A program made the translations under genes and the position numbers. The notes under the pieces were generated by a model that did no database searches, was not told where the DNA came from, and saw only the letters and a program-made list of their open reading frames with translations. 64,000 nt of DNA from a virus (taxonomy: Duplodnaviria > Caudoviricetes). Positions 9,620 through 48,005 of this stretch are shown piece after piece. The stretch lies in IMG/VR virus record IMGVR_UViG_3300032272_000008, positions 1 through 64,000 of that record, one strand, 5' to 3'. The first letter of the stretch is position 1, and each line of letters opens with the position of its first letter.

Positions 9620-11023
9620 TTAAGCTTTCTGTTTTGCCAGTTGTGCGCGGATCTCTGTCATCGACCGGCGTTTCTTTGGTTGTTTGAAGTAGGATTTGCT
9701 CAAAACCACGAGTTCATCCTTTGCGCGGGTCACGCCGGTATAGAACCACTCAGGGAAGCCGTCCATGCGACGCGGGTACTCGCCGACCACACACACCTTC
9801 GGCCATTCAGAGCCTTGGGATTTGTGTACGGTGAGAGCGTACGGATACATCACCTTGACGCCCTTGCGCTCAGATTCGATGCGGGAATAAGTATCTTCTC
9901 GCTGATTGTCCATAAGCATCACGTTCGGAGGGATGAGGTCGCTAAGGCACAGGACGCAGCTATACTCCAGACCATTCTCAAGCTCGATTGTAGCCTTCGT
10001 CAGGTACGGGTTGGTCCGCTTCATGTATTCGTCAGTGGCTTGGATCTCAACGATTTTCAATGGCTGTCCTTTGAAGATGCCGTCGTCGGCTTTGTTCTGG
10101 TCGAACAAAAGTTCTTCACCGGGCATTGGCCGCAGCTGATCACCGTCAGGAAGTGACACGTAGTCAAAGCCTTTTGCAAGCCGTATGGCGAGGTTCAGGT
10201 GGTGCCGCGTGACGTTCTTCCACACAAGCACTTGATGATCCTTGGCGTATTCCAAGACGGTAGCGATGCCTTCATCGTCGCTGTACGTCAAGTCAGCAGA
10301 GGCTGCGAAGGTCTCGATGTCCACAGCGCCGTTGCCGCGTACGTTGTGCGCGACTTTGATAATCCCAGAGCCTTCAGCCTGTCGGTGGATTTCAGTCAGC
10401 TTGATGTCAGGATTGGCGAGATCGATTGCAGGACGATCCTGTACAGGTGGGAGCTGTCCGTAGTCGCCGAAGTAGATCTTCGGAACCTTGATGTTGTTGA
10501 TGAACGGACGCATCATCGTGTCCTGTCCAATCATGGAAGCCTCGTCGCAGATCAGGCAATCGAAGAATTCATAGAAGTCTTCCGGGTCGATCGCTTGGAA
10601 AGACATCTTGCTCTTGTTGCCATACTTGTCTGCCAGGTCTTGGAGGTTTTCCCACTCAGCTAGGAGTTCAGCGCGCATGTGAGGACGTGCCATCATGTCA
10701 GCTTTGCAGACTTCCATGCGCGCGTTGATCTCTTTCAGATGATCGACAGGATTGTCTGTCAAGACTGAATGAAGGGTGCGCGCCTTAAAGTAGTCCTGCT
10801 TACCACTGATCACGTGAGCTGCTTTTCCAGTTGGTGCGCAGACAGCAGGACGGAAGCCTTGTTCTTTCATGCGGCGGACCAGTTCGATCAAGGTCACGGT
10901 CTTGCCGGTGCCCGCGAGACCTGACACTGTGAAATGGTTTTCTCCGTCGCCTTCTTCAAGGTACTCCAGAGCCATTCCTATCGCTAGGTCTTGTTCTGCG
11001 TTGAGTGTGATTGCGTCGGACAT
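9620..11023 (-). CDS. RecD/Dda-like SF1B DNA helicase
   Basis: GLAGTGKT Walker A, APTGKAA, CDEASMI, GDYGQLPPV, YALTVHKSQGSEW, YTGVTRAK. Confidence 0.92.
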   Translation of the reverse strand: MSDAITLNAEQDLAIGMALEYLEEGDGENHFTVSGLAGTGKTVTLIELVRRMKEQGFRPAVCAPTGKAAHVISGKQDYFKARTLHSVLTDNPVDHLKEINARMEVCKADMMARPHMRAELLAEWENLQDLADKYGNKSKMSFQAIDPEDFYEFFDCLICDEASMIGQDTMMRPFINNIKVPKIYFGDYGQLPPVQDRPAIDLANPDIKLTEIHRQAEGSGIIKVAHNVRGNGAVDIETFAASADLTYSDDEGIATVLEYAKDHQVLVWKNVTRHHLNLAIRLAKGFDYVSLPDGDQLRPMPGEELLFDQNKADDGIFKGQPLKIVEIQATDEYMKRTNPYLTKATIELENGLEYSCVLCLSDLIPPNVMLMDNQREDTYSRIESERKGVKVMYPYALTVHKSQGSEWPKVCVVGEYPRRMDGFPEWFYTGVTRAKDELVVLSKSYFKQPKKRRSMTEIRAQLAKQKA

Positions 11024-11118
11024 CGTGGAATTCCCTTTGTATAAACTTTGTATTCGGTGCGGTATGATGGGTTCTACCTGGAACCCATTGCATGGTCACG
11101 TACAAACGTGATCATTGG

Positions 11119-13155
11119 TTAATGGCACTCAGCCCAGTTGTGGCCGATCTTGAATTCCGCACCGATTGGACAGCTCATTCCAAAACTCGATCCAGCGTCC
11201 GCAGCAGCTTCAATACAGAGCGCTGCAAACTCTTCGGCAACTTCCGAACGAGCCGCTGACTGAATTTCGTCGTGTACAAAGGCAAGCATTGCGAAGTCAC
11301 CATGCCATCCATGATTGAGTCCTTCAGCCATTGCATAGTCTTCTGTGAAGACGAGCCAGCGTTTGGCAATAAGAGCACCGGCTCCTTGCAGTCGTGTGTT
11401 GAGAGCAGCATGTTCAGATCGGATAGGGACTTTGCGTCCGTCGAGACCATAGATGAATCCTTTCTGCGCCTGGGCTTGTGTTTCCTTGATCACGCTGTTG
11501 AGCGCGGGCAGACCGTCCATCAATTGCTGACGGAAGCGTCGGCCAGCTTCAGCCCACTGACTTGAGTCCAAGTCCGCTGCAATAGTCGCGCCAATCTTTG
11601 GATCACCCGCGCCATACAGCAGCCCGTATAGCCCGCGCTTTATCGTACTGCGGCTGTCGATACCAGTTTTCGACATGTTGTACGCGTGGATGTCCTGGCC
11701 GCTCGCAATCACTTCGATCATTTCGCCACCGTCGTATGGAGACATCGCGTCTGCCAGACAACGGAACTCGATACCTGATAAGTCTGCGCCAACTTGCACC
11801 CATGGTTCACCTTCAACGGTTTCAGGAACATAAAACAGCGAGCGACATTCGTATCCGTACTTGCCTTTGAGGCCAAGTATTGGATGATCATCTTTGTCCA
11901 GTTGCACCGAGGGCACCTGTCCAAGGTTCGGGCCATGATGGGACGCGCGGCCAGTGACAGTGCCGCCGATGTTGATGTAGCAGTGGACCGCGCCGGTCTC
12001 TTTGTCGAATTTTTTGATCCAGGCTTCAGAACCGTTCGAGATATAGCCCAACAGTTTTTGCAGCTGGAAGATGTCCGCAAGTTCGTTGCAGATAGGATGG
12101 CGTTCACCCATGGCGCGCAGAACGGTGTCGTCAACGGACGGACGCCCTGTCTTGGTCCACTCAGTCGGGTGCCACGCAAAATCGTCTGTGAGGAAGTCTA
12201 TGACCTGATCTCGCGACGTTGGCGAGAAGGGTTTCCACTTCATCTTGCAGTAGGCACCACCAGCTGTCCGGTCACCACGCTTGGTAGGATCTTTTGATTT
12301 GGCATCCTTCTTCGGGATGGTAATTTCCGCCCACCACTTGCGTGAGTAATCTTCTCCCCACTCTTCACGTGGCGGCTTGTAAGCCTTCTTCGCCTGGAGA
12401 CCTTTTGGATCATTCCAGAGGGGACTTATCACGTACTTTTTTTCCGCTGCGAACGCGCCGCATCTTTTTTCGACGACGGCTTGGACTTTCACCGCCATTT
12501 CGGATTGTAACTTTTGGGCGAGTACCTCGGCCTCCGCCAGCTTGAAAGGGAAGCCGGTATGCTCCATGTAGGTGACAACTTCTTGTGTCGCCTGTTCCAT
12601 GTCGATCGTGTCGAGCGAGACGTTATGCTTCTCGATGAAATTCCAGAGCAGAATGTTGACGTCGATATCGTTCTCACAATAGTCGTCCATCTCCTGATTC
12701 CATTCGGACCAAGGGTCGAGACCTTTTGCCTGCATCTCTTTCGCATAGTCGCCCTTGCGCTTGCCAAGACGATAGCCCCACGAGTCGAGTGAATGCTTGC
12801 CGATCATCTTTGCAGGCAGTCGGCCTTGCTTATTCGCGGCGAAGTCCAGTGGCTTGAAATCGATCGGGAGCAAGCGCACCATGACAAGCGTGTCGCGGAT
12901 CTCGATGTCTCCTGCATGGAAGTGCGGGTAGACGATGGCCACGGCCTTGATGTCGAAGCCGATGATGTTGTGGCCAATCCACATGTCAGCTGCTTCCAGC
13001 ATAGCCACGCCGTCGGCGATGTCGTTGCCAGCCTTGTTGTTTCGGAAGGCAAACTTCTCAAGCGTGTCCACGTCAATGATGTGCAGGCAATGGATTCGAT
13101 CCATCGTCGGCAGGAGACCGTTCGTCTCCACGTCCCATAATAATCTACGTCCCAT
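11119..13155 (-). CDS. polA: DNA polymerase family A (T7-type) with 3'-5' exonuclease
   Basis: WDVETNGL ExoI, GHNIIGFD ExoII, YCENDID ExoIII, DLSGIEFR motif A, K..LYGLLYGAG motif B, VHDEIQ motif C. Confidence 0.95.
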   Translation of the reverse strand: MGRRLLWDVETNGLLPTMDRIHCLHIIDVDTLEKFAFRNNKAGNDIADGVAMLEAADMWIGHNIIGFDIKAVAIVYPHFHAGDIEIRDTLVMVRLLPIDFKPLDFAANKQGRLPAKMIGKHSLDSWGYRLGKRKGDYAKEMQAKGLDPWSEWNQEMDDYCENDIDVNILLWNFIEKHNVSLDTIDMEQATQEVVTYMEHTGFPFKLAEAEVLAQKLQSEMAVKVQAVVEKRCGAFAAEKKYVISPLWNDPKGLQAKKAYKPPREEWGEDYSRKWWAEITIPKKDAKSKDPTKRGDRTAGGAYCKMKWKPFSPTSRDQVIDFLTDDFAWHPTEWTKTGRPSVDDTVLRAMGERHPICNELADIFQLQKLLGYISNGSEAWIKKFDKETGAVHCYINIGGTVTGRASHHGPNLGQVPSVQLDKDDHPILGLKGKYGYECRSLFYVPETVEGEPWVQVGADLSGIEFRCLADAMSPYDGGEMIEVIASGQDIHAYNMSKTGIDSRSTIKRGLYGLLYGAGDPKIGATIAADLDSSQWAEAGRRFRQQLMDGLPALNSVIKETQAQAQKGFIYGLDGRKVPIRSEHAALNTRLQGAGALIAKRWLVFTEDYAMAEGLNHGWHGDFAMLAFVHDEIQSAARSEVAEEFAALCIEAAADAGSSFGMSCPIGAEFKIGHNWAECH

Positions 13156-13156
13156 G

Positions 13157-13375
13157 TCAGGTTCCTCGATACTTAGGATGCGTAATTGCAGCCTCTATCA
13201 TTTCCATTGCAAGCAGGCGGTTCGTATGTTGTGACCTTGTAGTGTTCACACACGCCTCTATGTCACCCGGAAGGTATGTGACCTTGATACCAGACGGACC
13301 ACTGCCGACGTGCTGTCCGCCACGGTTGAAGCCGAAGGGCCAGGACTCAATCTTCAAGTGTTTTGGATCTATCAA
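13157..13375 (-). CDS. Stand-alone class I release factor domain (GGQ) protein, about 72 aa
   Basis: IDPKHLKIE..GGQHVG...GIKVTYLPGDI...RSQHTNRLLAME. TTG start at 13375 with GAGGA RBS (ORF track start 13402). Confidence 0.75.
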   Translation of the reverse strand: MIDPKHLKIESWPFGFNRGGQHVGSGPSGIKVTYLPGDIEACVNTTRSQHTNRLLAMEMIEAAITHPKYRGT

Positions 13376-13508
13376 TGTCAGGTTCCTCATATTGGGCGTC
13401 ACACTTTGGGCAACAGTTGTTATCGTTCAACTCACCGTCACCCCGGCAGTGGTCGCATCCAAAGTCGTCGTCTTCAATTGATACACCCCAGGCTTCGATG
13501 TCAGGCAC
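13347..13508 (-). CDS. Small Cys-rich (CxxC...CxxC) protein, 53 aa, not in ORF track
   Basis: AGGAG RBS + GTG; MPDIEAWG...CDHCRGDG...CCPKCDAQ. Confidence 0.6.
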   Translation of the reverse strand: MPDIEAWGVSIEDDDFGCDHCRGDGELNDNNCCPKCDAQYEEPDIDRSKTLED

Positions 13509-13517
13509 TTCTGTCTC

Positions 13518-15134
13518 CTATCGTTGAGCGCACCACTTCTGGCCACGCATTGTTACAATCGTTCGCTTGCCGTTCGAGTATGTTACAATGTGAGAATGGT
13601 TCCAGCCGGTCAGTCCGCCTCGATTATATCCTTGATCGCGGGTACAGGAATGCCCCGCAAGATAGATGCCTTCATATATGCCTGCACCATGCTTGTCAGC
13701 GATGTTGGCTTTAGGACCCATCTTGGAAAATGATTTGATGTGCCCCTTTGCCCCGTTGGCACCTTTGTCACCGTGTAGCGCGTTCTCGATGTTGCCGCAA
13801 ATAACAAATGATCCGGTGTTCGGAATGAACTGCACATTGTCGAGGTCATAGTCCTGCTTTCTGATGCCCCACTCAGCGGCGAGGAAGTTGTCTTCACGTT
13901 TCTTGATTGCTTTGTAGTAGGCAGTCTGTGCTTCAAGAAAGAACAATGCGTTGGCTGGATCGAAGCGGGTGTCGGCGGTCTTGAGCCACTTCTCGAATGC
14001 ACGGTCATGATTACTGTCGATGACGATGGACTCGCAGAACTCACGCTGAGTGCCTTCTAAGAAGCGTGCTGCATTGATGAACTCACCTTCGACGTTTGAC
14101 TTGCCGTTGATGTGCATCTTGTACCAGTGATGCGGGTCCTTGACGTTGTGATGGTTGCGTCGGCGGAAGTCAATCACATCATGGAAGAATTGGTAAACCG
14201 GTTTCAACGTATCGAGCATATTATCTTCAACCATGACGATGCTGCTGAACTCAGAGTCGTATCCCCACGATCCGATCGCCGTATCGTAGTCCAATGTTTC
14301 CGCGTGGATGTCGCCCCAGGTAATCGCCTCAACAATTCCGCTACCCTCTGTAATGGCTCCGTCTGCCACATAGTTGTTCAGATCACAGAACGCACCATCT
14401 TTGTCAGCCGCGAGGTGGCGACAGAAGAAGTCACCTTCACTATCGATCTCAACGAGCACTGCGCCGATGACGTGATGGAATTCGGCTTTGATGCCAGCCT
14501 TCTGTTGAAGGTAGTTCGGCAACGTGACGGCACCGGTTGTCATGATGATCTTTGGGTCGTCATGGAGCCGCGTGGGGACGCTTTCGAGAACCACCTTCGG
14601 GTGAGGAAGGATGGCCCACTTTTCACGCGTGTACGTCTGAAAACCAGATAGGGGATCGGTTGCAGTCGGTAGCGTGTTCATCTCACCGCAGAAGACCAAC
14701 CGGCCATCGACATCGAACCGTTCATTGGAGATGTAGTCGGCGATGTCTGGGTGATAGATCGAGACGATGTTCTTGTCTTCGCGCGCCGTCGCCTGCATGT
14801 TGTAGGTGAAGCCGCTGATGTGGATGTTAGCATTCAAGTGGGCTGCGTATGCTTTAAGGTTCTCCATGAAGCCTTCGTGCACTGCGGTGTGGGCCTGGGC
14901 CGATGAGAAGATCCAGGTTTTGACAGCTGCGCCCCGCCGAGGCTTCTTTAGAGCCACCGGCTTGTTCTGGTTTTTCGTGGTGTAGGAGGCGGTAATTTTA
15001 CGGTGTCGGCGTTGGAAAGTGACGCGGGCTATACCTAATCCCGTGGCGGCTTTGTTGAGACTGCCGTACGTCTTGACAGCTTCGAGGACTTCAGCGTCTG
15101 ACATTTTCGCCAGAACAGGATGTGGAGCGGCCAT
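13518..15134 (-). CDS. T5 A1-like metallophosphoesterase/DNase with N-terminal HTH
   Basis: N-term helix-turn-helix; SSAQ..T.VH..F, PTA.DPL.G, TTGAVT..NY..KAG.KAEFHH, WGDIH, FHD..DF..RNHH, SNHD. Confidence 0.65.
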   Translation of the reverse strand: MAAPHPVLAKMSDAEVLEAVKTYGSLNKAATGLGIARVTFQRRHRKITASYTTKNQNKPVALKKPRRGAAVKTWIFSSAQAHTAVHEGFMENLKAYAAHLNANIHISGFTYNMQATAREDKNIVSIYHPDIADYISNERFDVDGRLVFCGEMNTLPTATDPLSGFQTYTREKWAILPHPKVVLESVPTRLHDDPKIIMTTGAVTLPNYLQQKAGIKAEFHHVIGAVLVEIDSEGDFFCRHLAADKDGAFCDLNNYVADGAITEGSGIVEAITWGDIHAETLDYDTAIGSWGYDSEFSSIVMVEDNMLDTLKPVYQFFHDVIDFRRRNHHNVKDPHHWYKMHINGKSNVEGEFINAARFLEGTQREFCESIVIDSNHDRAFEKWLKTADTRFDPANALFFLEAQTAYYKAIKKREDNFLAAEWGIRKQDYDLDNVQFIPNTGSFVICGNIENALHGDKGANGAKGHIKSFSKMGPKANIADKHGAGIYEGIYLAGHSCTRDQGYNRGGLTGWNHSHIVTYSNGKRTIVTMRGQKWCAQR

Positions 15135-15194
15135 GTATTTTGTCCTTCTTATTTCAATGCGTTGGGTATATCACGTCATAGGGCCACCTGCAAG

Positions 15195-16820
15195 CTACAG
15201 GTATTTCTGGCCCATCATACGGTCAATGTTCTGCTGTCTCACGTCGAGTATTTCCACAAGTTCGGCCTCGATAGAATCCTCAATGACAAGGCGGTATACT
15301 GCGATTGGATTGAGCTTTGTAGGTAGCCACGGTCTCTCTTCGGCCTGATCGTATTCAGAGGGCACTGCTCTAGCAAACTCTGCAATGACAACGACGTCGG
15401 ATGCGGACAGTTCGATGGCTTCGGACATAGACTGGAGGTTTCCAACAATGATTCGACATGTTGGATCAGTCTGGAAACGTACTCGCTCTGCTTCGCGCTG
15501 AGAGGTTGACATGCCTCCGTATACTCGTGCGATAGTCTCAGGCGCAAATGCATCGTAGAACTTCTCAAGGGGTTCTCGGTGGTGATAGAAGACGATGACC
15601 TTGGGTTCAGTTTCAAGAATTTCGTTGATGACATCGACGACCATATCGACTTTTCTGAGAGCCAATTCACGACGGGCAACTGGCCCTTTCCCTTCGACCA
15701 TTCCGACATCATCAAGCGTAACGTCTCCGAGCTTATCTTCGCCACCGGCATTTAACATCTCTCTTAGTTTGTCCAAATTCTGTTGGAAAGCCGAGCGCTC
15801 TGTAGCGAGCAGGCGGGATAAACCAGTCTTTGGCAACAAAATAGTCTGACGTAGTGGAGGCAATTCTTCTAACACGTCGCCCTTCTCGCGGCGTATCATA
15901 AAGGTTTTCCTTAGATAGAATTGCAAGTCCTCTTCGTTTGAAGACCCGCTTGTATCGAGTCCAAACGCGCCCTTGAACGCGTTGCAATACTTGTAGATGT
16001 AGCTTTTCCAGTTGGACCCTAAACCGCTTTTGTCGAGCTTTTCGATCATAGGCCACAGCTGGATTGGTCGTGTAAAGATCGGGGTTCCAGTGAGACATAT
16101 GAAGTGTTCCTTCGCTTTGATCTTCTGGTCGCGTTTCTTGCCCTTGACCGGCTTGCCAAAGGTTATCTTTGTGCGCTTGGATTTTGGATTGCCAAGCTTA
16201 TGTGTCTCATCGCTGATCACGACATCCCAATCGATCGACGTGAGATAGTCGAAGTGCTTTTCGAGTAGCTCGAAATTGATGACCAGGAAGTCCGTCTCAG
16301 GATTGTTCGGTCCTTCGCAGTATCCCACACTCATGTCATGAACAAGCCACTCCTTCGCTTCACGGACCCAGCCCACCTTCGCGTTTGCGGGAACAACCGC
16401 CAGAACGCGTCGTGGTCGGTCGGTTTCGGGGAGTAGATTGATGACGCCGAGAGTTTGGATGGTTTTGCCAAGGCGTGGGACATCAGCGTTGAGTGAGCCC
16501 CAGCGCGACGCCATGAAGGCGATTCCTGCTTTTTGATAGTCACGGTATTCCCTTCCTGGTGGTGCGGGCACTTGGATGTCCGAAGTTACCGCAAGGCTCT
16601 CAGCGACAGCTTCTCGCTTGATGTTGATGAATTTAGAGACAACTATAGCTGTCCCGTCGTCGCAGAACTCCAAAAAAGGAACCACGCGTTCAATCTTACT
16701 TGTCCTCGCTTCGTCTCTGATCTTCAAATGAAGCCAGCCTTTGCTTTTCAGTTCAAGCAACTTCTCGGGCGATCCGGTCGCAAAGAACCGGCCACCTTTA
16801 TGTGTGATCTGGAGGGTCAT
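15195..16820 (-). CDS. SNF2-family helicase (HARP/SMARCAL1-like)
   Basis: ADVPRLGKT, VISDETH, LTGTPI, MIRREK, KVIVFYHHRE, QAEER (degenerate motif VI). Confidence 0.85.
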   Translation of the reverse strand: MTLQITHKGGRFFATGSPEKLLELKSKGWLHLKIRDEARTSKIERVVPFLEFCDDGTAIVVSKFINIKREAVAESLAVTSDIQVPAPPGREYRDYQKAGIAFMASRWGSLNADVPRLGKTIQTLGVINLLPETDRPRRVLAVVPANAKVGWVREAKEWLVHDMSVGYCEGPNNPETDFLVINFELLEKHFDYLTSIDWDVVISDETHKLGNPKSKRTKITFGKPVKGKKRDQKIKAKEHFICLTGTPIFTRPIQLWPMIEKLDKSGLGSNWKSYIYKYCNAFKGAFGLDTSGSSNEEDLQFYLRKTFMIRREKGDVLEELPPLRQTILLPKTGLSRLLATERSAFQQNLDKLREMLNAGGEDKLGDVTLDDVGMVEGKGPVARRELALRKVDMVVDVINEILETEPKVIVFYHHREPLEKFYDAFAPETIARVYGGMSTSQREAERVRFQTDPTCRIIVGNLQSMSEAIELSASDVVVIAEFARAVPSEYDQAEERPWLPTKLNPIAVYRLVIEDSIEAELVEILDVRQQNIDRMMGQKYL

Positions 16821-16849
16821 GTTACCTTGAATGCACCTAAAGGCACTTT

Positions 16850-16869
16850 ATGTTACCTTGAGGTAACAT
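16850..16869. promoter_or_regulatory. Palindromic operator-like site upstream of the SNF2-polymerase operon
   Basis: ATGTTACCT-TG-AGGTAACAT; ATGTTACCTTGA is also repeated at 16819-16830 over the SNF2 RBS/start. Confidence 0.55.
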
Positions 16870-16871
16870 TT

Positions 16872-17156
16872 TCAGTTGGCTGGGAGGATGTAATAGCGCC
16901 CTTGGATGCGCTCGACATTGTAGCGCTTGTAGAACACGCCCACTTTACAAGTCACACGAATGCGTCCCATCCCCGCTGATTCGAGTTTGTGGATGCTGTC
17001 ACAGCGGTAGCCGTCAGCTACGATTTCTTTTCTGAGACTTGCGTAGGCTTTGGCAGGGTATGCGAATGCGATCCCCACGATGCAGACGACGCAAACGATG
17101 GCCAGAACGACAGCGTAGAAGGGAGGTTTCGGCCTGACATAATATTTCGATTCCAT
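16872..17156 (-). CDS. Hypothetical protein with N-terminal TM/signal segment
   Basis: GAAAGGA RBS; hydrophobic residues 14-33; two Cys. Confidence 0.6.
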   Translation of the reverse strand: MESKYYVRPKPPFYAVVLAIVCVVCIVGIAFAYPAKAYASLRKEIVADGYRCDSIHKLESAGMGRIRVTCKVGVFYKRYNVERIQGRYYILPAN

Positions 17157-17914: not shown

Positions 17915-19432
17915 TTAGATGCCCCAGGTATCTATGTTGGGATCATCGTGATCGTAATCTGCCGCAGGGTTCTCACGCTTCTGGCGAAGCTGGATGCGGA
18001 ATTCTTCGACGGCTCGCTCGTCTTCTTCATGACCAAGGCGTTGCAGTTCCTCTTGATACCGTTCTTCTGCGATGCGCTTGGCTTCTGCTTCGATGGCGCG
18101 CTGTTTGTATTCACGCGCTTCAGCTTGTCGAGCGTCTTCGATTGCAAGATTTTCAGCAATCTCCTTGGCCGCTAATGCGTCAGCTTCATCTCGGCGCTCC
18201 ACCTCTTCTCGGACTTCAGCTGCAACGAATTCCGCTTCAATCCTATCTGCGGCTGCCTGCGCGTCTTCCGTGTCGGCGTCGTAGCAGGTACATTCGTCGA
18301 TATACTCGCCGCAGTCGGAGCAGTCATCTTCGTAATCTTGGTAATCTTCGTAATCTTTCTCGTCCAATTGCTCTGCGGAGTTGGCGGGAGTTTCAGTTGC
18401 CAATTCAGTTTCGAAGCCTCCGCCAAGGTCATAGAGAGGTTTCATTCCCTCCGTTGGCAGAGGACTTCTTGAGACAGGATCATCAAGAATCATCATTGGT
18501 TCTGGGACAGGACCGTAGTCGTCATTGAACTCGTCGTCCATGACGATCGTGTGTGTGGTCTCAGGTGCCTGGAAAGCAGAGATGCCCACAGTGCCGCCAG
18601 TGATCAATGGAGTGCCCTTGAAGAAGTCTTTGCACTCTTCCTGCGGAACTTCACCGATGACTTTGTATTCGCACGCACGGCCTTTCTGATAGTTGTAGTC
18701 GCGAGGAATGGCACACACATTCATTGGGTCGATTTCGACCACAACAACTTTGTTCTCTCCGCCACTGCCATAGTGGCTCAGGTATTCAAAGCCACAGAAA
18801 TGAAGGCCGTTGCTGCACTCTCTGTCACGGTCACTGTCAACCGCTGCCCGTTCCATCTTGACGACGAGACCAGGGGCGTTGCTGATCTTGGTGCCGCCAG
18901 GACCCTGGTGGATCGACGTGTAGTCACCAGCCACTTTCTTGAACGCAATCAGGTTGCCTTCGGAAGTGATTGGAAGCTGTGCGCCTTCCATCCATTCGAA
19001 CAGTTCTGCGCCGATGTCTGTCTTTGGGTTCAGCATGATCTTGTTCATGAACTTGGCAAGCGGAGCCACGTCGAGACCTTGGTGAAGGTGCTGCATGATG
19101 CGCTCTGCGACGAGGTTGTGGACAGGCTGGTCGGCATACAGGACACCTTTGTCTGTGACCTTGACGAGACCTTCGGTCAGGCGAGTGATGTACGCGGGGA
19201 TGTCCAGCAAGTCACGCAGCTTGGAGACAGCTTTCTCAATGCGTTGATCTCTGGTGCCATACAGTTGGCGAGCGACGAAGCCCAGCTCTGGTGCAGAGTG
19301 CATTTTGTCAATGTCCGTGAGGACTTTCCTCACTCGGAGGAAATTGATATGTGAAGAAGGAATTATCCGCATGCGGCCTTCGAAGAAGATGCTGATGGAT
19401 TTGGGAGTGATCGATGCTGGAACTCGGGTCAT
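17915..19432 (-). CDS. rIIB: rIIB-like protein with long acidic C-terminal extension
   Basis: AFKKV..DY..IH, VDSDRDRECSNGLHFC...YL..YG, VEIDP..VCAIP.DYN..KGRAC.YKVIGE. Confidence 0.88.
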   Translation of the reverse strand: MTRVPASITPKSISIFFEGRMRIIPSSHINFLRVRKVLTDIDKMHSAPELGFVARQLYGTRDQRIEKAVSKLRDLLDIPAYITRLTEGLVKVTDKGVLYADQPVHNLVAERIMQHLHQGLDVAPLAKFMNKIMLNPKTDIGAELFEWMEGAQLPITSEGNLIAFKKVAGDYTSIHQGPGGTKISNAPGLVVKMERAAVDSDRDRECSNGLHFCGFEYLSHYGSGGENKVVVVEIDPMNVCAIPRDYNYQKGRACEYKVIGEVPQEECKDFFKGTPLITGGTVGISAFQAPETTHTIVMDDEFNDDYGPVPEPMMILDDPVSRSPLPTEGMKPLYDLGGGFETELATETPANSAEQLDEKDYEDYQDYEDDCSDCGEYIDECTCYDADTEDAQAAADRIEAEFVAAEVREEVERRDEADALAAKEIAENLAIEDARQAEAREYKQRAIEAEAKRIAEERYQEELQRLGHEEDERAVEEFRIQLRQKRENPAADYDHDDPNIDTWGI

Positions 19433-19518
19433 GATGGTCCTTTCATTGGGTTGTTCTATTCTCTGACACTCTTGTACGAGCGTACCGGGCCGGTGTCTAC
19501 TTTTAAATAGACGCTTGG

Positions 19519-21750
19519 TTAACTGGCCCGATCAACTGTCTCGATATACTCAGCCATATGAGACAGCTTATCTCCCTCGACCTTCTTCACGCCACCATAA
19601 TACTTCTTCGTCAGATCCATGTACTGAAGCATCGGATAGCGGCTTACCACTTCTTCCCATGCTTTCTCTTTCGTTTCTTCGCTGATAATCTTTGCAAAGC
19701 ACGCCCGTTCGGCTTCATTCATCAAAACAGGAACGTTCAGCTGTTCTGCCAATCGTCTCAGATTATTGACATTGCCTTCACGAGCAAGTTTTCGCTCGAT
19801 GATTTTCAACTTGATAGTCGCCTCACGAAGCGCACCACGATGTGTCGGAAGGACACCTTTCTGGATCAGTGCACCACATAGTTCATGTATGTGCGTTTCG
19901 CCAGTAAATTCTCCCTTCTCATTCAACAGCATGATCAGTTCCGGTGTCATCCGTGACTCGACAACTTCCTGCAAGATAGGACGCAGTCTCTGCCATTTAC
20001 CACCGGCTCGCTCAATTTTCTTACGATGCGTCGCAGGGATCTGAACAATCTTCGTGTCCGCATCGATCTTTCCTACTGCAAGCAGGAAGGCGTGTGCCTG
20101 GGCAAAATCATAATCGGACCACATGTAGTTGAAGTCATTCATTCGGCCACGTGTCGTCTCAATGTAGAGCACGTTGTCATCGTCTGACGAGATGTCAGAA
20201 GAAATCCAGTTCATGCTGCTCGGCCCCGTTATGTGGGCTTCCTTGCATTTCACCGTGGCACGTGTGTACTGTGCCCGCGCTTCCTTCGGAGCTTCTGGCA
20301 GCTCAGACACGATGTGCAGCGCACCTTTATCAGGGCGACCAGCCATGATCATGAAACGTGCTGCTTGACTTGTGTTTGCGTCACACTTCACCCAGACGCA
20401 ACGCTTGGTGCCGAAGTTGTTTCCGACTACGTGGTTGTGACGGAAGTGGTGTGCGATGTTCAAGCCGCGACCACGTGTGTTTTTGCCGTCACCGACGATG
20501 TCCAAGTAGATGATGTCTTTGCCAGGACGTAGAAAAGCAGTACCGTTATGCGCCCACTTGCCGTCCCAGGCATTCTTGTGCCGTGCCGTCAGACCATTAA
20601 TCGACTGGCGATCAGTAACTTGCATCACACGGCGACCCAACATCTCGCGTTCTTTTACCCTGAAGTGTATTTCGTCCGTCAATTTCCGGCCTTGGAACTT
20701 CAATGTGCTGCCCAAGATTCGCGAGACGGTGTCGCTGATTGACTTGTCCGCCATGATCTCTTGGTATTTGGCCGTAGCCTCCCACCGTGTTTTACAACTG
20801 TTGAACTCCGCTACGAACTGTTCTGTGACCTCTTTATATGCGGAGGCAGCGCGCTTAACAATGTTGGCCTGCGTCTCGGGGTCGTATGAGAGGCCTTCAC
20901 GTGAGGCTGCGATGTCCACTTCACCGATAGGGAAGTCGATGATTGTGTTCGCTTGCAGGATGATCTTTGTTGGCTCATCGCAATCTTTGATCGAGTTCGG
21001 ATCAATTGGGTAGAGGACGCAGCCTTGGCGAGCGAACGCTTGTGCGCTTGCATAGCGGTCTGGGTTGACGTAGAAGCTCCAGCCATCACCCGTATAGAGT
21101 GTTTCGATGTTGCGCTTCTCTTCAAAAATTTCTCGTTCACGATCGGGGACGTCGATGTTTGGTTGCACTGGGAAGCCACGAGCAACCTCGCCAGTTTTCT
21201 GGGCGAACTCTCTGACGTCCATTGTGTCAACCGGGAAGGAGACCTCGACGCCTTGCGGTTCCGTAGACGGTGAGCGATCCATGAGGTCGATACATGGGCA
21301 GCGCTCGCGGTCGAGGTAGGCGGAGTAGACGCGGACTTCGCCGTCCAACCAAACAGTGACCGTGAAAGCGTCCGTATACGCATAAGGACTTTTCGAACCA
21401 AGGCCCAACATGCCGACTGCATCATTTGTTTGTTCCTTTGTGCTTTCGAACACAGTCGAGTACAGCCCCATGACTGTCTCATGTGTCATGGAAATGCCGT
21501 AGTCCCGGACTGAGAAGTGTGGTTCGAATAGGGATGGAAGGTGGACATCAAACGGGACATCGCTCTTGCCTGCTTCAGCGTGGCTGTCGAAAGCGTTCGA
21601 CCAAAGCTCACGGATGGCGGCGCGCGGCTTGTCTGAGTACAGGCCGTCGATGAGGATTTTGAAGGCTTTGCCGCTGGCAGCAATTTTGAATTTAGTTGTT
21701 TCAGCGGTGCCGATGGTCTGAACGTCACGTTCTTCGATATTCATACGCAT
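19519..21750 (-). CDS. rIIA: rIIA-like protein (GHKL ATPase N-terminus)
   Basis: AFKILIDGLYSDKPRAAIRELWSNAFDSH, VRDYG, GMLGLGSKSPYAYTD; AAGGA RBS before ATG 21750; adjacent to rIIB. Confidence 0.9.
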   Translation of the reverse strand: MRMNIEERDVQTIGTAETTKFKIAASGKAFKILIDGLYSDKPRAAIRELWSNAFDSHAEAGKSDVPFDVHLPSLFEPHFSVRDYGISMTHETVMGLYSTVFESTKEQTNDAVGMLGLGSKSPYAYTDAFTVTVWLDGEVRVYSAYLDRERCPCIDLMDRSPSTEPQGVEVSFPVDTMDVREFAQKTGEVARGFPVQPNIDVPDREREIFEEKRNIETLYTGDGWSFYVNPDRYASAQAFARQGCVLYPIDPNSIKDCDEPTKIILQANTIIDFPIGEVDIAASREGLSYDPETQANIVKRAASAYKEVTEQFVAEFNSCKTRWEATAKYQEIMADKSISDTVSRILGSTLKFQGRKLTDEIHFRVKEREMLGRRVMQVTDRQSINGLTARHKNAWDGKWAHNGTAFLRPGKDIIYLDIVGDGKNTRGRGLNIAHHFRHNHVVGNNFGTKRCVWVKCDANTSQAARFMIMAGRPDKGALHIVSELPEAPKEARAQYTRATVKCKEAHITGPSSMNWISSDISSDDDNVLYIETTRGRMNDFNYMWSDYDFAQAHAFLLAVGKIDADTKIVQIPATHRKKIERAGGKWQRLRPILQEVVESRMTPELIMLLNEKGEFTGETHIHELCGALIQKGVLPTHRGALREATIKLKIIERKLAREGNVNNLRRLAEQLNVPVLMNEAERACFAKIISEETKEKAWEEVVSRYPMLQYMDLTKKYYGGVKKVEGDKLSHMAEYIETVDRAS

Positions 21751-21900
21751 TCTGTTGTTCCTTTTCGGTTGGTCATTCGCGTTTCGTTGAAATGAATATG
21801 TCAGAACCTTTCCCCTGACGCAATTCCTTGATATTGACATAGTTAATAGGACGTGACATTGTAGGCACAACCCTTCCAAAACCTTATAAGGTGTACTTTT

Positions 21901-22878
21901 ATGACAACTCTCGCCCCACATCTCGTTGTAACGGAACTTGCCGACAGCACGGACTGCGACCGGGTTGTAGATCCTGGAAAATATTCTGTTGTCACGCCTG
22001 GAAATGGGCCTAGTGGTGACAATTTCATCATAGAAGTGCTGAAGACAACCATTTCCGGCATTAGTGTTGTGATGCAGCGCGCCTTCGCACAGAGCACCAA
22101 CGGCGTCTATGTACGCTTCTTGAATGCTGGTGCGTGGACCACCTGGACACAAGCGGGCGGCGCAGCCGCTGCTTCAAGTGTTTTCACCTTCGATCCCGAC
22201 CTGCTAACCAGATCTATGGCTGCTCCGAGTTGGTCATCAGCCACAGCGGCTACTACACACCTGGGAGCTATTTTAGATAACTCCAACTTTACAGGTCTTG
22301 AAGACGACGCAATTCCTTATCGTGCGCAACCGAATATTAGACTGCAACCTACAGCAGGTAATTTCAACGGCGGCAACATCTACACCAGAGATATGGGATT
22401 GTTTCGAGCGCAGGGTTTCCGTACCCGTCAGCGATTTGCTGTAGGTGCGACCCTTCAACCGAATCATCGTATTTTTGTTGGACTATCTTCTGGCGGCATT
22501 GTTCTGAATAACCCGACAACAAATGACAATTTGATCGGATTGTATTTGGACGCTAATGCTGATCCTGATTGGCAAATTCTATCCAACGCTACAGGCACAT
22601 CCCAAACACCAGTAAACGGTGTAACAGGATTTACAGCGGTTGCAGGACAGTTCTTAGAGGTTTGTTTCTATTCTGAGGCTGGTGGCGCAGGGATTGAGTA
22701 TAAGGTTACCAATCTTGCGGACTCAGCGGAATACTCTGGAGAAATAACTTCGGAACTACCGACTGCAACGCCAGCAAGCGGGGAGTCGCTCAGTTGCACC
22801 ACTGAGACCAACAACGGCGACCACGCCTCAAACGTAGCAGAAGCTTTCTTCCACTATTCGATGGCGCAGGCACTTTAA
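21901..22878 (+). CDS. Putative tail fibre / virion surface protein
   Basis: Pyocin-knob-like QRAF...YVRFLNAGAWTTWT motif followed by a beta-rich, lectin-like region. Confidence 0.5.
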   Translation: MTTLAPHLVVTELADSTDCDRVVDPGKYSVVTPGNGPSGDNFIIEVLKTTISGISVVMQRAFAQSTNGVYVRFLNAGAWTTWTQAGGAAAASSVFTFDPDLLTRSMAAPSWSSATAATTHLGAILDNSNFTGLEDDAIPYRAQPNIRLQPTAGNFNGGNIYTRDMGLFRAQGFRTRQRFAVGATLQPNHRIFVGLSSGGIVLNNPTTNDNLIGLYLDANADPDWQILSNATGTSQTPVNGVTGFTAVAGQFLEVCFYSEAGGAGIEYKVTNLADSAEYSGEITSELPTATPASGESLSCTTETNNGDHASNVAEAFFHYSMAQAL

Positions 22879-24972: not shown

Positions 24973-25204
24973 CGTCAAGTGGAACTGGACCAAAATAACC
25001 AAAGCTACACTCCCGCCCGACGATCGTTACTTCATGACATGGTCGGAAGAAGACATACCCCCCGTGGCGGTGTGTCGCACCTACAAATTCGACGGGGGTG
25101 ATCGCTATATCCTCTATGCCGATGAACTTTTGTGCGATGTCGCACCAGAAGGTCCTGTTGGGGCAACCCATTGGGCAGAGTACCCGGAAGGACCTACAGA
25201 TTGA
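24962..25204 (+). CDS. DUF551-like small protein
   Basis: C-terminal THWAEYPEGP resembles the THW..LP.PP signature. Confidence 0.5.
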   Translation: MADNVKWNWTKITKATLPPDDRYFMTWSEEDIPPVAVCRTYKFDGGDRYILYADELLCDVAPEGPVGATHWAEYPEGPTD

Positions 25205-25728
25205 CAACCATCCTCTTGACTGAAGATATGATCGGCTGGGATGACCAGCTGACATTCGGCGACCAGAAGCATGCTTGCTCGTTCGAGAAAGTTTTCGTTG
25301 ATGCCAACGGTGTCTGGGCTTTTGCCGGGTCACCTTCAAATGCCTTGCGCGCTATTAAAGGCATCGTGGCGGGAGAATTCTTCACTGAAATTCCCGGCCT
25401 CATGGAGTCGGCGGTCGGCGGCGAGAATCCGTTTGAGATCTTCCGTATGTGGGAAGGCTTGGACGGCGAGCGTCACATCCGGTACTGGTCGGAAGACAAC
25501 ATCTATGGCTTCACGCCTCCGTTACCGATGGCGCTGGGCACAGGTTCCTCTTTTGTTCTCGGTGCGTACTATGGTGCGGAACGGAATGTGACCGTCGCGA
25601 TGAAGTTGGCAGTCGAGCACGACGCATACTCTGGTGGTGAAGTTCATGTGGACAGCACACTGGCGATGTGGGACAAGCACTTGTTGGCGAAGAAACGCCG
25701 CAAGGAAGCTGCGTTGTCTACAGAATAA
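25201..25728 (+). CDS. HslV/proteasome-beta-like Ntn hydrolase
   Basis: AAGGA RBS + TTG gives (M)TTI; D.Q.T, EK, FAGS, ALGTGSSFVLGA, AV.HD.YSGG.V. Confidence 0.65.
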   Translation: MTTILLTEDMIGWDDQLTFGDQKHACSFEKVFVDANGVWAFAGSPSNALRAIKGIVAGEFFTEIPGLMESAVGGENPFEIFRMWEGLDGERHIRYWSEDNIYGFTPPLPMALGTGSSFVLGAYYGAERNVTVAMKLAVEHDAYSGGEVHVDSTLAMWDKHLLAKKRRKEAALSTE

Positions 25729-47237: not shown

Positions 47238-47463
47238 ACGTGTCACAGCAATCTTTGTCGCAGAATCGCGTCAAGGAAAACACACCGTCCTGGATACCGA
47301 CGAAGAACTAATCGTCGTGTTTCCTTACGGGACGGAGCGTGTTGGCATGCGTTTCGATCGATTGATCATAACCTTTCGCCACAACAGCGAGAGACAAGCC
47401 CATTGGATTCGCCGCAACAGAATGGGATTGAAGCCTGACGGTCTGCTGATTGAAACCTTTTAA
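47230..47463 (+). CDS. Hypothetical protein (77 aa)
   Basis: GGAGA RBS; overlaps the upstream stop. Confidence 0.5.
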   Translation: MGRRVTAIFVAESRQGKHTVLDTDEELIVVFPYGTERVGMRFDRLIITFRHNSERQAHWIRRNRMGLKPDGLLIETF

Positions 47464-47482
47464 CCATGAGTGACATAGCCAC

Positions 47483-47510
47483 TTGATTTTCATTTTGGCT
47501 GTGTTACAAA
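47483..47510 (+). promoter_or_regulatory. Promoter of the tmRNA gene
   Basis: TTGATT-N16-TACAAA with an extended -10 TG. Confidence 0.5.
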
Positions 47511-47516
47511 GATCTC

Positions 47517-48005
47517 GAAGACGTTGAAGCGTCATTGAACAAGAACGGATACGCCGGGGCAGTACCGGCCATCTCCACCACAAGTCTACGGAGGAACAGA
47601 AGGCAGTAGCCGTACCAGATCGAAATAGCTCAAGAAGCTCTGTGCATATGTGATACGGCCACTGCGGCGAAAGCCAAGCATGCCCGACACCGTATAATCA
47701 CCTCAACGTGTATTTCATGCTGACCGCGCGCTCTGCCGTAGACTTCTGATGGGGATGAAATAGGTTCGACCGTTTTGGGTAGTGGAGTGGAGTTTTCCGG
47801 GTGATCTCGTCATAGATCGGACTGCTTAGTTGCAAACGACAACGAGGCTCTCTTACTCGCCGCATAGCCGCGAGTGGCGCAATGGCAAGCGTAGCAACAG
47901 AAGCTCTCACTGAGAGCAGGCCAAGGGTCGCCCACCATAAATGTTTGGTGGGAATTTAGGCAACCGGGAGCAGTTGGGAATCTGCTTATCGTAAGAAACA
48001 AAATC
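47517..48005 (+). ncRNA. ssrA: Circularly permuted two-piece tmRNA (acceptor piece about 47517-47580, intervening 47581-47750, coding piece from 47751; outer ends approximate)
   Basis: T-arm GCCGG-GGCAGTA-CCGGC then CATCTCC-ACCA; GGGGATG at 47751 completes a 7-bp acceptor stem with G3.U70; TAGTT-GCA resume context; tag ANDNEALLLAA* at 47832-47867 with a stop hairpin. Confidence 0.93.

What the first reader, a model, noticed from the sequence alone, without database searches (positions are those of the whole stretch)
13157..13375. Minimal stand-alone GGQ release-factor domain coupled to the DNA polymerase gene
Seen: about 72 aa with GGQHVG, a GIKVTYLP strand and RSQHTNR, which are hallmarks of RF domain 3. 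It lacks codon-recognition domains and the long basic ArfB tail. Its stop abuts the polA start. Established: GGQ catalyses peptidyl-tRNA hydrolysis in RF1/RF2/ArfB/PrfH. Inference: it frees stalled ribosomes (for example after defence-triggered tRNA or mRNA cleavage), recycles peptidyl-tRNA on 50S, or is a translation inhibitor/decoy.
Basis: partly seen in the sequence, partly recalled or inferred. Interest (0 to 1): 0.7.

Follow-up and report, generated by a model that had tools for sequence, protein, structure and literature searches.

The report
Phage bare GGQ release-factor domain
An uncultured phage carries a real, selected 72-residue gene that encodes only the peptide-releasing (GGQ) domain of a bacterial release factor. 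It belongs to a large, catalogued but untested phage family, and how such a bare domain acts on ribosomes is still unknown.

Summary
A minus-strand ORF at 13157-13375 (TTG start, 72 aa) encodes only domain 3 of class-I release factors, with GGQHVG, the beta hairpin and RSQHTNR. Its TGA stop lies one base before the polA ATG.

Support for homology and for a working gene:
- Pfam RF-1 E 1.9e-8, and a family profile against RF1/RF2 structures E 4e-10.
- AlphaFold pLDDT 89, with Foldseek hits to ribosome-bound RF2/RF1.
- dN/dS 0.06 against a near-identical Tara Oceans phage.

It is not a truncated ArfB. It lacks ArfB's 24-residue insertion and basic tail, and it matches prfA/prfB/prfH models only.

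It belongs to a large, mostly viral family of about 70-aa proteins (phrog_20323). Of the 107 short (<=100 aa) representatives among the top 150 hits, 85 keep GGQ. I found no paper on this family, and this scan has already noted it on at least 51 other genomes.

The polA coupling is local. Relatives sit in other phage replication modules or at prophage ends, with no conserved partner gene. In related phages the slot before polA holds other genes.

The phage also carries a permuted tmRNA, but 24 other carriers of the family do not.

My best reading is a sensor-less peptidyl-tRNA hydrolase that acts on ribosomes with a long-vacant A site (confidence about 0.5). This mechanism is inferred, not shown.

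The parts
13157..13375 (-). Mini-GGQ gene: 72-aa stand-alone release-factor domain 3 (TTG start, TGA stop)
   Evidence: ORF and translation; Pfam RF-1 and phrog_20323; PDB profile hits to RF1 residues 217-278; AF2 model and Foldseek; purifying selection; start confirmed by homologues.
13313..13321 (-). GGQ codons (GGC GGA CAG), residues 19-21, in the loop between strands 1 and 2
   Evidence: Sequence read directly; loop position from the AF2 model; GGQ is present in 85 of the 107 short (<=100 aa) representatives among the top 150 hits.
13217..13237 (-). RSQHTNR motif at the start of the single helix (residues 47-53)
   Evidence: Aligned to RSQHKNK of RF1; R47, S48, Q49 and N52 are conserved in 62-70 of 74 family members.
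13375..13388 (-). Upstream copy of the exact 14-nt repeat GAGGAACCTGACAT (Shine-Dalgarno sequence, spacer and first base of the TTG start codon)
   Evidence: Only two exact copies in 64 kb, 221 nt apart; the equivalent repeat AGGAGCCTGACA stands before both genes in L053.
13154..13167 (-). Downstream copy of the 14-nt repeat. It spans the last GGQ codons and the stop, and serves as the polA ribosome-binding site and the start of its ATG
11119..13155 (-). Family-A DNA polymerase gene (678 aa), starting one base after the GGQ stop
   Evidence: Pfam DNA_pol_A E 1.4e-39, phrog_17 E 5.6e-114; about 40% identical to phiCbK-type Caulobacter phage PolA.
13347..13508 (-). 53-aa Cys-rich (CxxC...CCxxC) ORF that overlaps the GGQ start by 29 nt; not a conserved partner
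   Evidence: ORF list; only weak family hits; absent from the near-identical phage L053, where the 538-aa gene is followed directly by the GGQ gene.
13518..15134 (-). Upstream 538-aa gene (phrog_1745, annotated 'DNA transfer protein'), the conserved left border of the variable slot
   Evidence: phrog_1745 E 9e-170; 98.8% identical in L053; a gene annotated the same way lies upstream of PolA in phiCbK.

Best explanation
The gene encodes a complete but bare peptidyl-hydrolase (GGQ) domain of the RF1/RF2/PrfH type. It is a member of a mainly phage-borne family of about 70-residue proteins. It is transcribed with the early and replication genes (rIIA/rIIB, helicases, PolA), and polA translation is probably coupled to its termination. 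The most likely activity is GGQ-dependent hydrolysis of peptidyl-tRNA in the peptidyl-transferase centre of ribosomes whose large-subunit A site stays empty for a long time. Such ribosomes could be non-stop or otherwise stalled 70S, or split 50S still carrying peptidyl-tRNA. The domain has no decoding domain, no mRNA-channel tail and no conserved partner. Selectivity would therefore have to come from concentration and from the lifetime of the vacant A site, not from a sensor. This would return ribosomes and tRNAs to the pool during infection, alongside the phage's own tmRNA. Shown here: homology, fold, motif retention, purifying selection, family distribution and gene context. Inferred: ribosome binding, catalysis and the substrate.
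For: The RF domain 3 sequence and fold are intact, with GGQ and RSQHxNR. Purifying selection is strong: dN/dS 0.06 against L053 and 0.08 against L002. The family is large. A search of every cluster representative gave 2461 hits, and 107 of the top 150 are <=100 aa, which score better than full-length RFs. GGQ is kept in 85 of those 107. The residues that define the catalytic scaffold are the conserved ones. The family is mostly viral: 43 IMG/VR loci were returned by the search, about 25 of them short mini-GGQ forms; ESM Atlas clusters are 59-100% viruses; there are BFVD hits. The gene sits repeatedly in DNA-metabolism or early modules. The same phage encodes a complete permuted tmRNA, so stalled ribosomes matter to it. 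Established knowledge: the GGQ domains of RF1, RF2, ArfB, ICT1 and PrfH all catalyse peptidyl-tRNA hydrolysis in the PTC.
Against: ArfB loses detectable activity when only its last 10 tail residues are removed, and its function depends mainly on the C-terminal extension (PMC3950681). A bare GGQ domain is therefore expected to bind 70S ribosomes poorly. The family is not more basic than RF domain 3, which it might be if charge compensated for the missing anchor (median pI 6.9 against 9.6). About a fifth of the short representatives lack GGQ (GGM, xGM and others), so some members must work without canonical catalysis. No conserved partner gene was found. None of 24 other carrier records has a tmRNA above the family cut-off. 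There are no experimental data for any member.
Confidence: 0.5

Rival explanations
1. Ribosome-binding modulator rather than rescue enzyme. The bare domain docks in the A-site side of the PTC and alters termination or elongation. It could compete with RF1/RF2 or aminoacyl-tRNA, cause premature release, or contribute to host shut-off. Catalysis would be secondary or dispensable.
For: About 20% of the short family representatives have GGM, xGM or other replacements for GGQ yet keep the rest of the domain. Earlier scan notes report conserved GGM and RRW subfamilies. The domain has no sensor to tell stalled ribosomes from working ones.
Against: This protein and 85 of the 107 short representatives keep an exact GGQ. 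A non-selective terminator would also damage phage translation. Nothing shows toxicity.
Confidence: 0.2
2. Mimic of the PrmC substrate. The domain presents a GGQ loop to the host release-factor glutamine methyltransferase. It is either methylated itself or titrates the enzyme, which would lower host RF activity.
For: The domain corresponds to the part of RF1 that carries the methylated Gln (alignment to RF1 217-278). This rests on established knowledge of the RF1-PrmC complex, not on a test here.
Against: Family members with Met in place of Gln cannot be substrates. There is no gene-context link to PrmC. The reading does not explain conservation of RSQHxNR and the helix.
Confidence: 0.07
3. 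Functionless captured fragment of a host prfA/prfB gene, retained by chance in a variable slot.
For: It lies in a slot whose content differs between related phages. It is flanked by a 14-nt direct repeat, as a recently inserted cassette would be.
Against: dN/dS is 0.06-0.08 at saturating dS. The family has a uniform length of about 70 aa, its own conserved motifs (WP before GGQ, GGQHVG, C-terminal THPxFR) and hundreds of diverged members.
Confidence: 0.03

Closest known systems
Domain 3 (GGQ / peptidyl-hydrolase domain, Pfam RF-1 PF00472) of bacterial class-I release factors RF1 and RF2
   Same: It aligns without gaps to E. coli RF1 residues 217-278. It has the same three-stranded sheet plus helix, GGQ loop length, THxPTG hairpin and RSQHxN(K/R) helix start.
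   Different: Domains 1, 2 and 4 (stop-codon reading, switch loop) are absent, and the helix is cut after about 16 residues. It has family-specific residues: W-P before GGQ, Gly instead of Asn after GGQHV, and a THPxFR C-terminus.
ArfB (YaeJ) / ICT1 stand-alone rescue factors
   Same: A GGQ domain that is not attached to codon-recognition domains, and a presumed codon-independent hydrolase.
   Different: It has no linker and no basic C-terminal helix, which ArfB needs for binding and activity (PMC3950681). It lacks the roughly 24-residue insertion between strands 2 and 3. There is no ArfB model hit in NCBIfam and no ArfB structure at E <= 0.01.
PrfH (RF-H), partner of RtcB2
   Same: An RF-type GGQ domain, with a gapless profile alignment to a phage PrfH-like protein and a TIGR03072 hit at E 5e-7.
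   Different: PrfH is about 200 aa with a domain that reads the damaged decoding centre, and it is encoded next to RtcB. Here the protein is 72 aa and there is no RtcB in the record.
Phage proteins of phrog_20323 and similar UniProt entries (72-aa 'Peptide chain release factor class I/class II' of an uncultured Caudovirales phage, A0A6J5NIJ4; 76-aa proteins of Acinetobacter phages 133 and Henu6; 131-aa 'peptide chain release factor 1' of Pseudomonas phage phiPsa347)
   Same: The same bare-domain architecture and size, carried by phages.
   Different: Sequence identity is only 20-37%. All are annotated automatically, and none has a tested function to my knowledge or in the library searched.
mtRF-R (C12orf65) with MTRES1 on split mitochondrial large subunits
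   Same: A GGQ domain that works without reading mRNA, on a large subunit holding peptidyl-tRNA. This is a possible functional analogy (from established knowledge; weak Foldseek hit 2rsm).
   Different: mtRF-R has a C-terminal extension and a dedicated partner protein. Neither is present here.

Membership tests
Pfam RF-1 domain (PF00472) / RF domain 3 superfamily | Significant profile match over the domain core | tested here: met
   E 1.9e-8 at 34.7 bits, which is 0.3 bits under the curated cut-off of 35. Close homologues P0002-P0004 carry PF00472 in precomputed tables. The family profile hits RF1/RF2 structures at E 4e-10.
Pfam RF-1 domain (PF00472) / RF domain 3 superfamily | GGQ tripeptide in the loop after strand 1 | tested here: met
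   GGC GGA CAG at 13313-13321 on the minus strand; loop position from the AF2 model.
Pfam RF-1 domain (PF00472) / RF domain 3 superfamily | Three-stranded sheet plus helix fold | tested here: met
   AF2 pLDDT 89, with strands 7-12, 29-34 and 39-43 and helix 49-64. Foldseek TM 0.65-0.73 (normalised to the query) to RF2/RF1 on the ribosome.
Class-I release factor RF1/RF2 | Domains 2/4 with the PxT or SPF stop-codon reader, and domain 1 | tested here: not met
   The protein is 72 aa and matches only positions 219-281 of the 361-position prfA model. There is no other RF-1 hit in the record.
ArfB / ICT1 | Linker plus basic C-terminal helix that occupies the empty mRNA channel | tested here: not met
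   Only 8 residues (THPKYRGT) follow the helix.
ArfB / ICT1 | ArfB-type GGQ domain with an insertion between strands 2 and 3 | tested here: not met
   hhalign against an ArfB-like phage protein needs a 24-residue gap. There is no ArfB model at E <= 0.01 in NCBIfam.
PrfH | A protein of about 200 aa with an N-terminal recognition domain, encoded next to RtcB | tested here: not met
   Only positions 118-164 of the 200-position model match. There is no RtcB in the record.
Phage mini-GGQ family (phrog_20323 and relatives) | Whole protein of about 65-95 aa consisting of the RF-1 core only | tested here: met
   phrog_20323 E 2.8e-7, covering profile positions 2-62 of 73. 107 of the top 150 representatives are <=100 aa.
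Phage mini-GGQ family (phrog_20323 and relatives) | Family-specific residues: W/Y-P before GGQ, GGQHVG, C-terminal (A/G)(L/I)THPxFR | tested here: met
   W12, P13, G24 and T65-H66-P67...Y69-R70 are present. Caveat: the 74 sequences were chosen for having GGQ, so GGQ invariance in that alignment is by construction.
Phage mini-GGQ family (phrog_20323 and relatives) | Peptidyl-tRNA hydrolase activity or ribosome binding | not testable with these tools
   No experimental report was found for any member.

The most novel reading that the evidence does not exclude
The bare GGQ domain is a sensor-free rescue factor. Because it does not need an empty mRNA channel, it can release peptides from ribosomes stalled with intact mRNA. 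One example is a hungry codon after an anticodon nuclease or another tRNA-depleting defence has acted. tmRNA, ArfA and ArfB cannot handle that substrate class. It could also act on split 50S carrying peptidyl-tRNA. This would be a phage counter-measure that keeps ribosomes and tRNAs available.
Probability: 0.2. Interest if true: 0.8.

Novelty: new variant of a known kind. Interest (0 to 1): 0.5.

Why it matters
Every characterised GGQ factor owes its specificity to something attached to the catalytic domain. RF1 and RF2 have decoding domains, ArfB and ICT1 have a tail, PrfH has a recognition domain, and mtRF-R has a partner protein. A widespread and strongly selected phage family that keeps only the catalytic core therefore poses a clear, testable question: can a bare GGQ domain find and act on ribosomes, and on which ones? 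The answer would reveal either a new mode of ribosome rescue or translation control used by phages, or a minimal tool for releasing nascent chains. This instance is a good test case. It has the canonical GGQ, sits in an early operon with translational coupling to polA, and shares a genome with a phage tmRNA. It is one member among many, and the phage is uncultured.

Tried and rejected
- Conserved partner gene: ORFs within about 6 kb of 25 mini-GGQ loci plus this window were clustered by all-against-all blastp. Only the GGQ gene itself recurred.
- The 53-aa Cys-rich ORF as a partner: it is absent from the near-identical phage L053.
- tmRNA as an obligate companion: no hit over the Rfam cut-off in 24 other carrier records.
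- tRNA clusters nearby: found only in L020.
- SmpB and RtcB in the 72.9-kb record: none, but the record is a fragment.
- Charge compensation for the missing anchor: the family is less basic than RF domain 3.
- Predicted complex of the family alignment with Caulobacter PrmC: no verdict. The score was 0.68, but one unrelated control scored 0.73, so this is not usable either way.
- RNA evidence: no RNA holder listed. The only run holding the stretch is a sediment metagenome that may be the source of this DNA.
- Near-identical cultured phage: megablast found none.
- Close relatives of the 538-aa gene in IMG/VR: none.
- Read-through or frameshift fusion to polA or to the upstream ORF: reading through the TGA meets a TAG after four codons. 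The upstream ORF is in another frame and is missing in L053.
- Promoter and terminator scan of 10900-17000: counts were no higher than in shuffled sequence.
- Literature: five full-text searches found no study of phage bare GGQ domains. The only related item is a passing mention of an RF-1-domain hypothetical gene in mycobacterial tRNA arrays (PMC5966550).
- Genome-collection scan: with the narrow pattern GGQHVG[ST][GA]P it found two loci. One lies on a short MAG contig. The other is in a Sphingomonas trueperi chromosome and is 100% identical to an IMG/VR provirus.

Full report
WHAT IS THERE

On the minus strand, 13375 down to 13157 is a 72-codon ORF plus a TGA stop. It starts with TTG. Longer in-frame starts exist at ATG 13390 and GTG 13402. 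However, the TTG aligns exactly with the ATG of the 90%-identical homologue on a Tara Oceans scaffold (L053), where CCTGACA-ATG-ATC-GAC corresponds to CCTGACA-TTG-ATA-GAT here. It also aligns with the starts of two further homologues.

The product carries these features:
- GGQ at residues 19-21 (GGC GGA CAG, 13313-13321).
- GIKVTYLP at residues 29-36.
- RSQHTNR at residues 47-53.

The stop (13157-13159) is followed by a single base and then the ATG of a 678-aa family-A DNA polymerase (13155). The polymerase's Shine-Dalgarno sequence GAGGAA lies in the last GGQ codons. Reading through the TGA would hit a TAG four codons later, so no fusion protein is made.

IS IT A RELEASE-FACTOR DOMAIN?

Yes. 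The evidence is:
- Pfam RF-1 matches at E 1.9e-8. The score of 34.7 bits is 0.3 below the curated cut-off.
- PHROGs has a family of exactly this kind, phrog_20323 ('RF-1 domain peptide chain release factor', profile length 73), matched at E 2.8e-7.
- A profile of the four closest sequences hits solved RF1 and RF2 structures at E about 4e-10. It aligns without gaps to E. coli RF1 217-278.
- NCBIfam gives prfA, prfB and prfH, each over the domain 3 stretch only.
- An AlphaFold2 model built on a 74-sequence family alignment has mean pLDDT 89. It shows strand 7-12, the GGQ loop, strands 29-34 and 39-43, and a helix at 49-64.
- Foldseek places the model on ribosome-bound RF2 and RF1 (probability 1.00, TM 0.65-0.73 normalised to the query). 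PrfH and C12orf65 rank lower.

IT IS NOT A TRUNCATED ArfB

- No ArfB model or structure appears at E <= 0.01.
- A profile alignment to an ArfB-like phage protein needs a 24-residue gap between strands 2 and 3. The alignment to a PrfH-like protein is gapless.
- Only eight residues follow the helix, so there is no linker or basic tail.
- The 72.9-kb virus record contains no other RF-1 match.

IS THE GENE REAL AND USED?

Against L053, the GGQ gene has dS 0.82 and dN 0.05, which gives dN/dS 0.06. Against the 74%-identical copy in an unrelated temperate phage (L002), dN/dS is 0.08. That is strong purifying selection.

THE FAMILY

A search of all 1.84 billion cluster representatives with the four-sequence profile gave 2461 hits at E <= 0.001. 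Of the best 150, 107 are <=100 aa and 58 fall in the 70-79 aa bin. These short proteins outscore full-length release factors.

The family has its own conserved features:
- An aromatic residue followed by Pro before the motif.
- GGQHVG rather than GGQHVN.
- The THxPTG hairpin.
- RSQHxNR.
- In one subgroup that includes this protein, a C-terminal (A/G)(L/I)THPxFR.

Of the 107 short representatives, 85 have GGQ, 6 have GGM, 4 have xGM, and the rest carry other changes or are truncated. The 74-sequence alignment was built from GGQ-bearing members only, so its GGQ invariance carries no information.

The family is mainly viral:
- The IMG/VR scan returned 43 loci with relatives, of which about 25 are mini forms.
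- The nearest ESM Atlas clusters are 61-81-aa RF-1 proteins with 59-100% viral members.
- BFVD holds a 72-aa 'Peptide chain release factor class I/class II' from an uncultured Caudovirales phage. It also holds 76-aa proteins of Acinetobacter phages 133 and Henu6, and a 131-aa protein of Pseudomonas phage phiPsa347.
- A narrow-pattern scan of species-representative genomes found two loci. One is on a short MAG contig. The other is in Sphingomonas trueperi and is 100% identical to an IMG/VR provirus, with the gene 683 bp inside the provirus end.

CONTEXT IN THIS PHAGE

The minus-strand array runs in this order:
- rIIA (19519-22152)
- rIIB (17915-19432)
- small ORFs
- an SNF2-type helicase (15195-16820)
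- a 538-aa phrog_1745 protein (13518-15134)
- a 53-aa Cys-rich ORF (13347-13508)
- the GGQ gene
- PolA (11119-13155)
- a Dda-like helicase
- a RecE-like exonuclease
- a nucleotidyltransferase

This looks like an early and replication operon. A consensus scan found no promoter or terminator signal above shuffled sequence around the GGQ gene. PolA is about 40% identical to that of phiCbK-type Caulobacter phages. The record is a fragment, with a CheckV completeness estimate of 37%.

IS THE polA COUPLING MEANINGFUL?

It is conserved only in the near-identical phage L053. There the order is 538-aa gene, GGQ, PolA, and the Cys-rich ORF is absent. That ORF is therefore not a partner.

In phiCbK the stretch between the 'DNA transfer protein' and PolA holds a hypothetical gene and a cytosine methyltransferase. 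In Microcystis phage Mwe-JY26 it holds four small unrelated ORFs. The GGQ gene thus occupies a variable accessory slot in a conserved replication module.

Elsewhere the family has no fixed neighbour, since all-against-all clustering of flanking ORFs recovered only the GGQ gene itself. Its neighbours are nonetheless often DNA-metabolism genes:
- a Cas4-type exonuclease and a helicase in L009
- NinB and RecT in L016
- a DprA-like protein in L020
- SSB in L021
- a repair exonuclease in L024
- a methyltransferase in L025

In L023 a family-A polymerase lies directly upstream. That polymerase is only 27% identical to this one over 144 residues, so the adjacency arose independently.

In temperate phages the gene tends to lie at the genome edge:
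- In L002 it sits beside a tRNA-3'-end-like sequence, with the integrase 1.4 kb away.
- In L018 it is 683 bp from the provirus end.
- Seven of the 25 mini loci lie within 1.7 kb of a contig end.

A perfect 14-nt direct repeat, GAGGAACCTGACAT, stands before both the GGQ start and the polA start. These are the only two copies in 64 kb. L053 has the equivalent repeat AGGAGCCTGACA before both genes, with the same A-to-G difference in both copies. Recombination between the two copies would remove the GGQ gene precisely.

RIBOSOME-RESCUE CONTEXT

The window encodes a complete permuted, alphaproteobacterial-type tmRNA at about 47462-47958 with tag ANDNEALLLAA. ARAGORN found it, and Rfam confirmed it with RF01849 at 71 bits and RF04321 at 75 bits, both above gathering. 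No SmpB, RtcB or tRNA genes are present in the record. None of 24 other viral records carrying a mini-GGQ has a tmRNA above cut-off. The pairing is therefore a feature of this phage and not of the family.

MECHANISM

What is shown: an intact, selected GGQ domain of the RF1/RF2 type with nothing attached, encoded in an early operon.

What follows from established knowledge: GGQ domains hydrolyse peptidyl-tRNA only when positioned in the PTC. In every studied factor that positioning is supplied by another module. For ArfB, removing the last 10 tail residues abolishes detectable activity, and function depends mainly on the C-terminal extension (PMC3950681).

My best reading, at about 0.5, is a sensor-less peptidyl-tRNA hydrolase. 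It would act slowly and in a concentration-dependent way on ribosomes whose large-subunit A site stays vacant, either stalled 70S or split 50S with peptidyl-tRNA. This would supplement host rescue and the phage tmRNA.

Four points weigh against this reading:
- There is no anchor for ribosome binding.
- The family is less basic than RF domain 3 (median pI 6.9 against 9.6; this protein has pI 9.0).
- There is no conserved partner gene.
- About a fifth of relatives lack GGQ.

The rival readings are:
- A binding-type modulator of termination or elongation (0.2).
- A PrmC substrate mimic (0.07). One predicted-complex job gave no verdict and is not used as evidence.
- A functionless fragment (0.03), which the selection data contradict.

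NOVELTY

The architecture is catalogued in PHROGs, UniProt auto-annotation and ESM Atlas clusters. This scan has already noted it on at least 51 other genomes, including followed-up GGQ, GGM and RRW variants. Five full-text searches found no study of it. The only related item is a passing mention of an RF-1-domain hypothetical gene in mycobacterial tRNA arrays (PMC5966550). A word search of the survey of release-factor evolution found no mention of phage (PMC6514570).

I rate it a new variant of a known kind, a GGQ peptidyl hydrolase stripped to its core. This instance is an ordinary member of that unstudied family. What sets it apart is translational coupling to polA, the flanking repeat and a co-resident tmRNA.

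Noticed in passing
window 47462-47958 (+): A complete permuted (two-piece) alphaproteobacterial-type tmRNA with tag ANDNEALLLAA. It matches Rfam RF01849 at 71 bits and RF04321 at 75 bits, both over gathering. A long insert of about 150 nt in the intervening segment is not covered by the RF04321 model. No SmpB and no tRNA genes are present in the record.
   Followed up: partly
window 13154-13167 and 13375-13388 (-); L053 around 500-525 and 725-745: An exact 14-nt direct repeat (ribosome-binding site, spacer and the first bases of the start codon: A of the GGQ TTG, AT of the polA ATG) flanks the GGQ gene. The near-identical phage L053 has the same arrangement, with one A-to-G change present in both copies, which suggests homogenisation or shared constraint. 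Recombination between the copies would excise the GGQ gene and put the 53-aa ORF in frame with polA.
   Followed up: partly
window 13347-13508 (-): A 53-aa acidic ORF with CxxC...CCxxC (zinc-ribbon-like) lies in a roughly 130-nt segment that is missing from the near-identical phage L053. It has only weak family hits (zf_C2H2_10 E 0.006; phrog_3931 E 0.008).
   Followed up: partly
representative proteins P0049, P0056, P0080, P0085, P0087, P0100, P0121, P0135, P0139, P0150, P0151: A recurrent subgroup of the mini family has Met where the catalytic Gln should be (GGM or xGM). Others have lost one Gly. These members are unlikely to be standard hydrolases.
   Followed up: partly
L033, L037, L038, L042, L048 (IMG/VR loci): Phage contigs, some of 200-390 kb, encode PrfH-like proteins of 145-210 aa with GGQHRNK and a GSGMRGDK(I/V/R)RT motif. 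This is a second, longer class of phage RF-domain proteins. RtcB neighbours were not checked.
   Followed up: no
L043-L045 and L049 (IMG/VR loci): Proteins of 140-205 aa whose N-terminus is an RF-1-like domain without GGQ (for example TWVGSSMG in place of the loop), fused to an unrelated C-terminal region.
   Followed up: no
L002 6300-6370: About 100 nt downstream of the GGQ gene in the temperate phage there is a sequence resembling a tRNA 3' half (GGTTCGAATCC T-loop). ARAGORN calls no complete tRNA there. An integrase lies 1.4 kb away, so this is probably the attachment site. A 62-aa XRE-type HTH gene sits 12 nt upstream of the GGQ gene.
   Followed up: partly
IMG/VR loci L010, L013, L015, L018, L025, L031, L040: Seven of 25 mini-GGQ genes lie within 1.7 kb of a contig or provirus end, against roughly 2 expected for contigs of 25-50 kb. 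This fits a moron-like position at the edge of temperate phage genomes.
   Followed up: partly
window 25132-25728 (+): A 198-aa ORF matches the PHROG 'peptidase HslV family' (phrog_1040, E 3e-12). There was no NCBIfam hit.
   Followed up: partly
window 17915-22152 (-): rIIA-like (877 aa) and rIIB-like (505 aa) genes head the minus-strand early array. The rIIB-like protein has a long acidic, repeat-rich C-terminal half.
   Followed up: no
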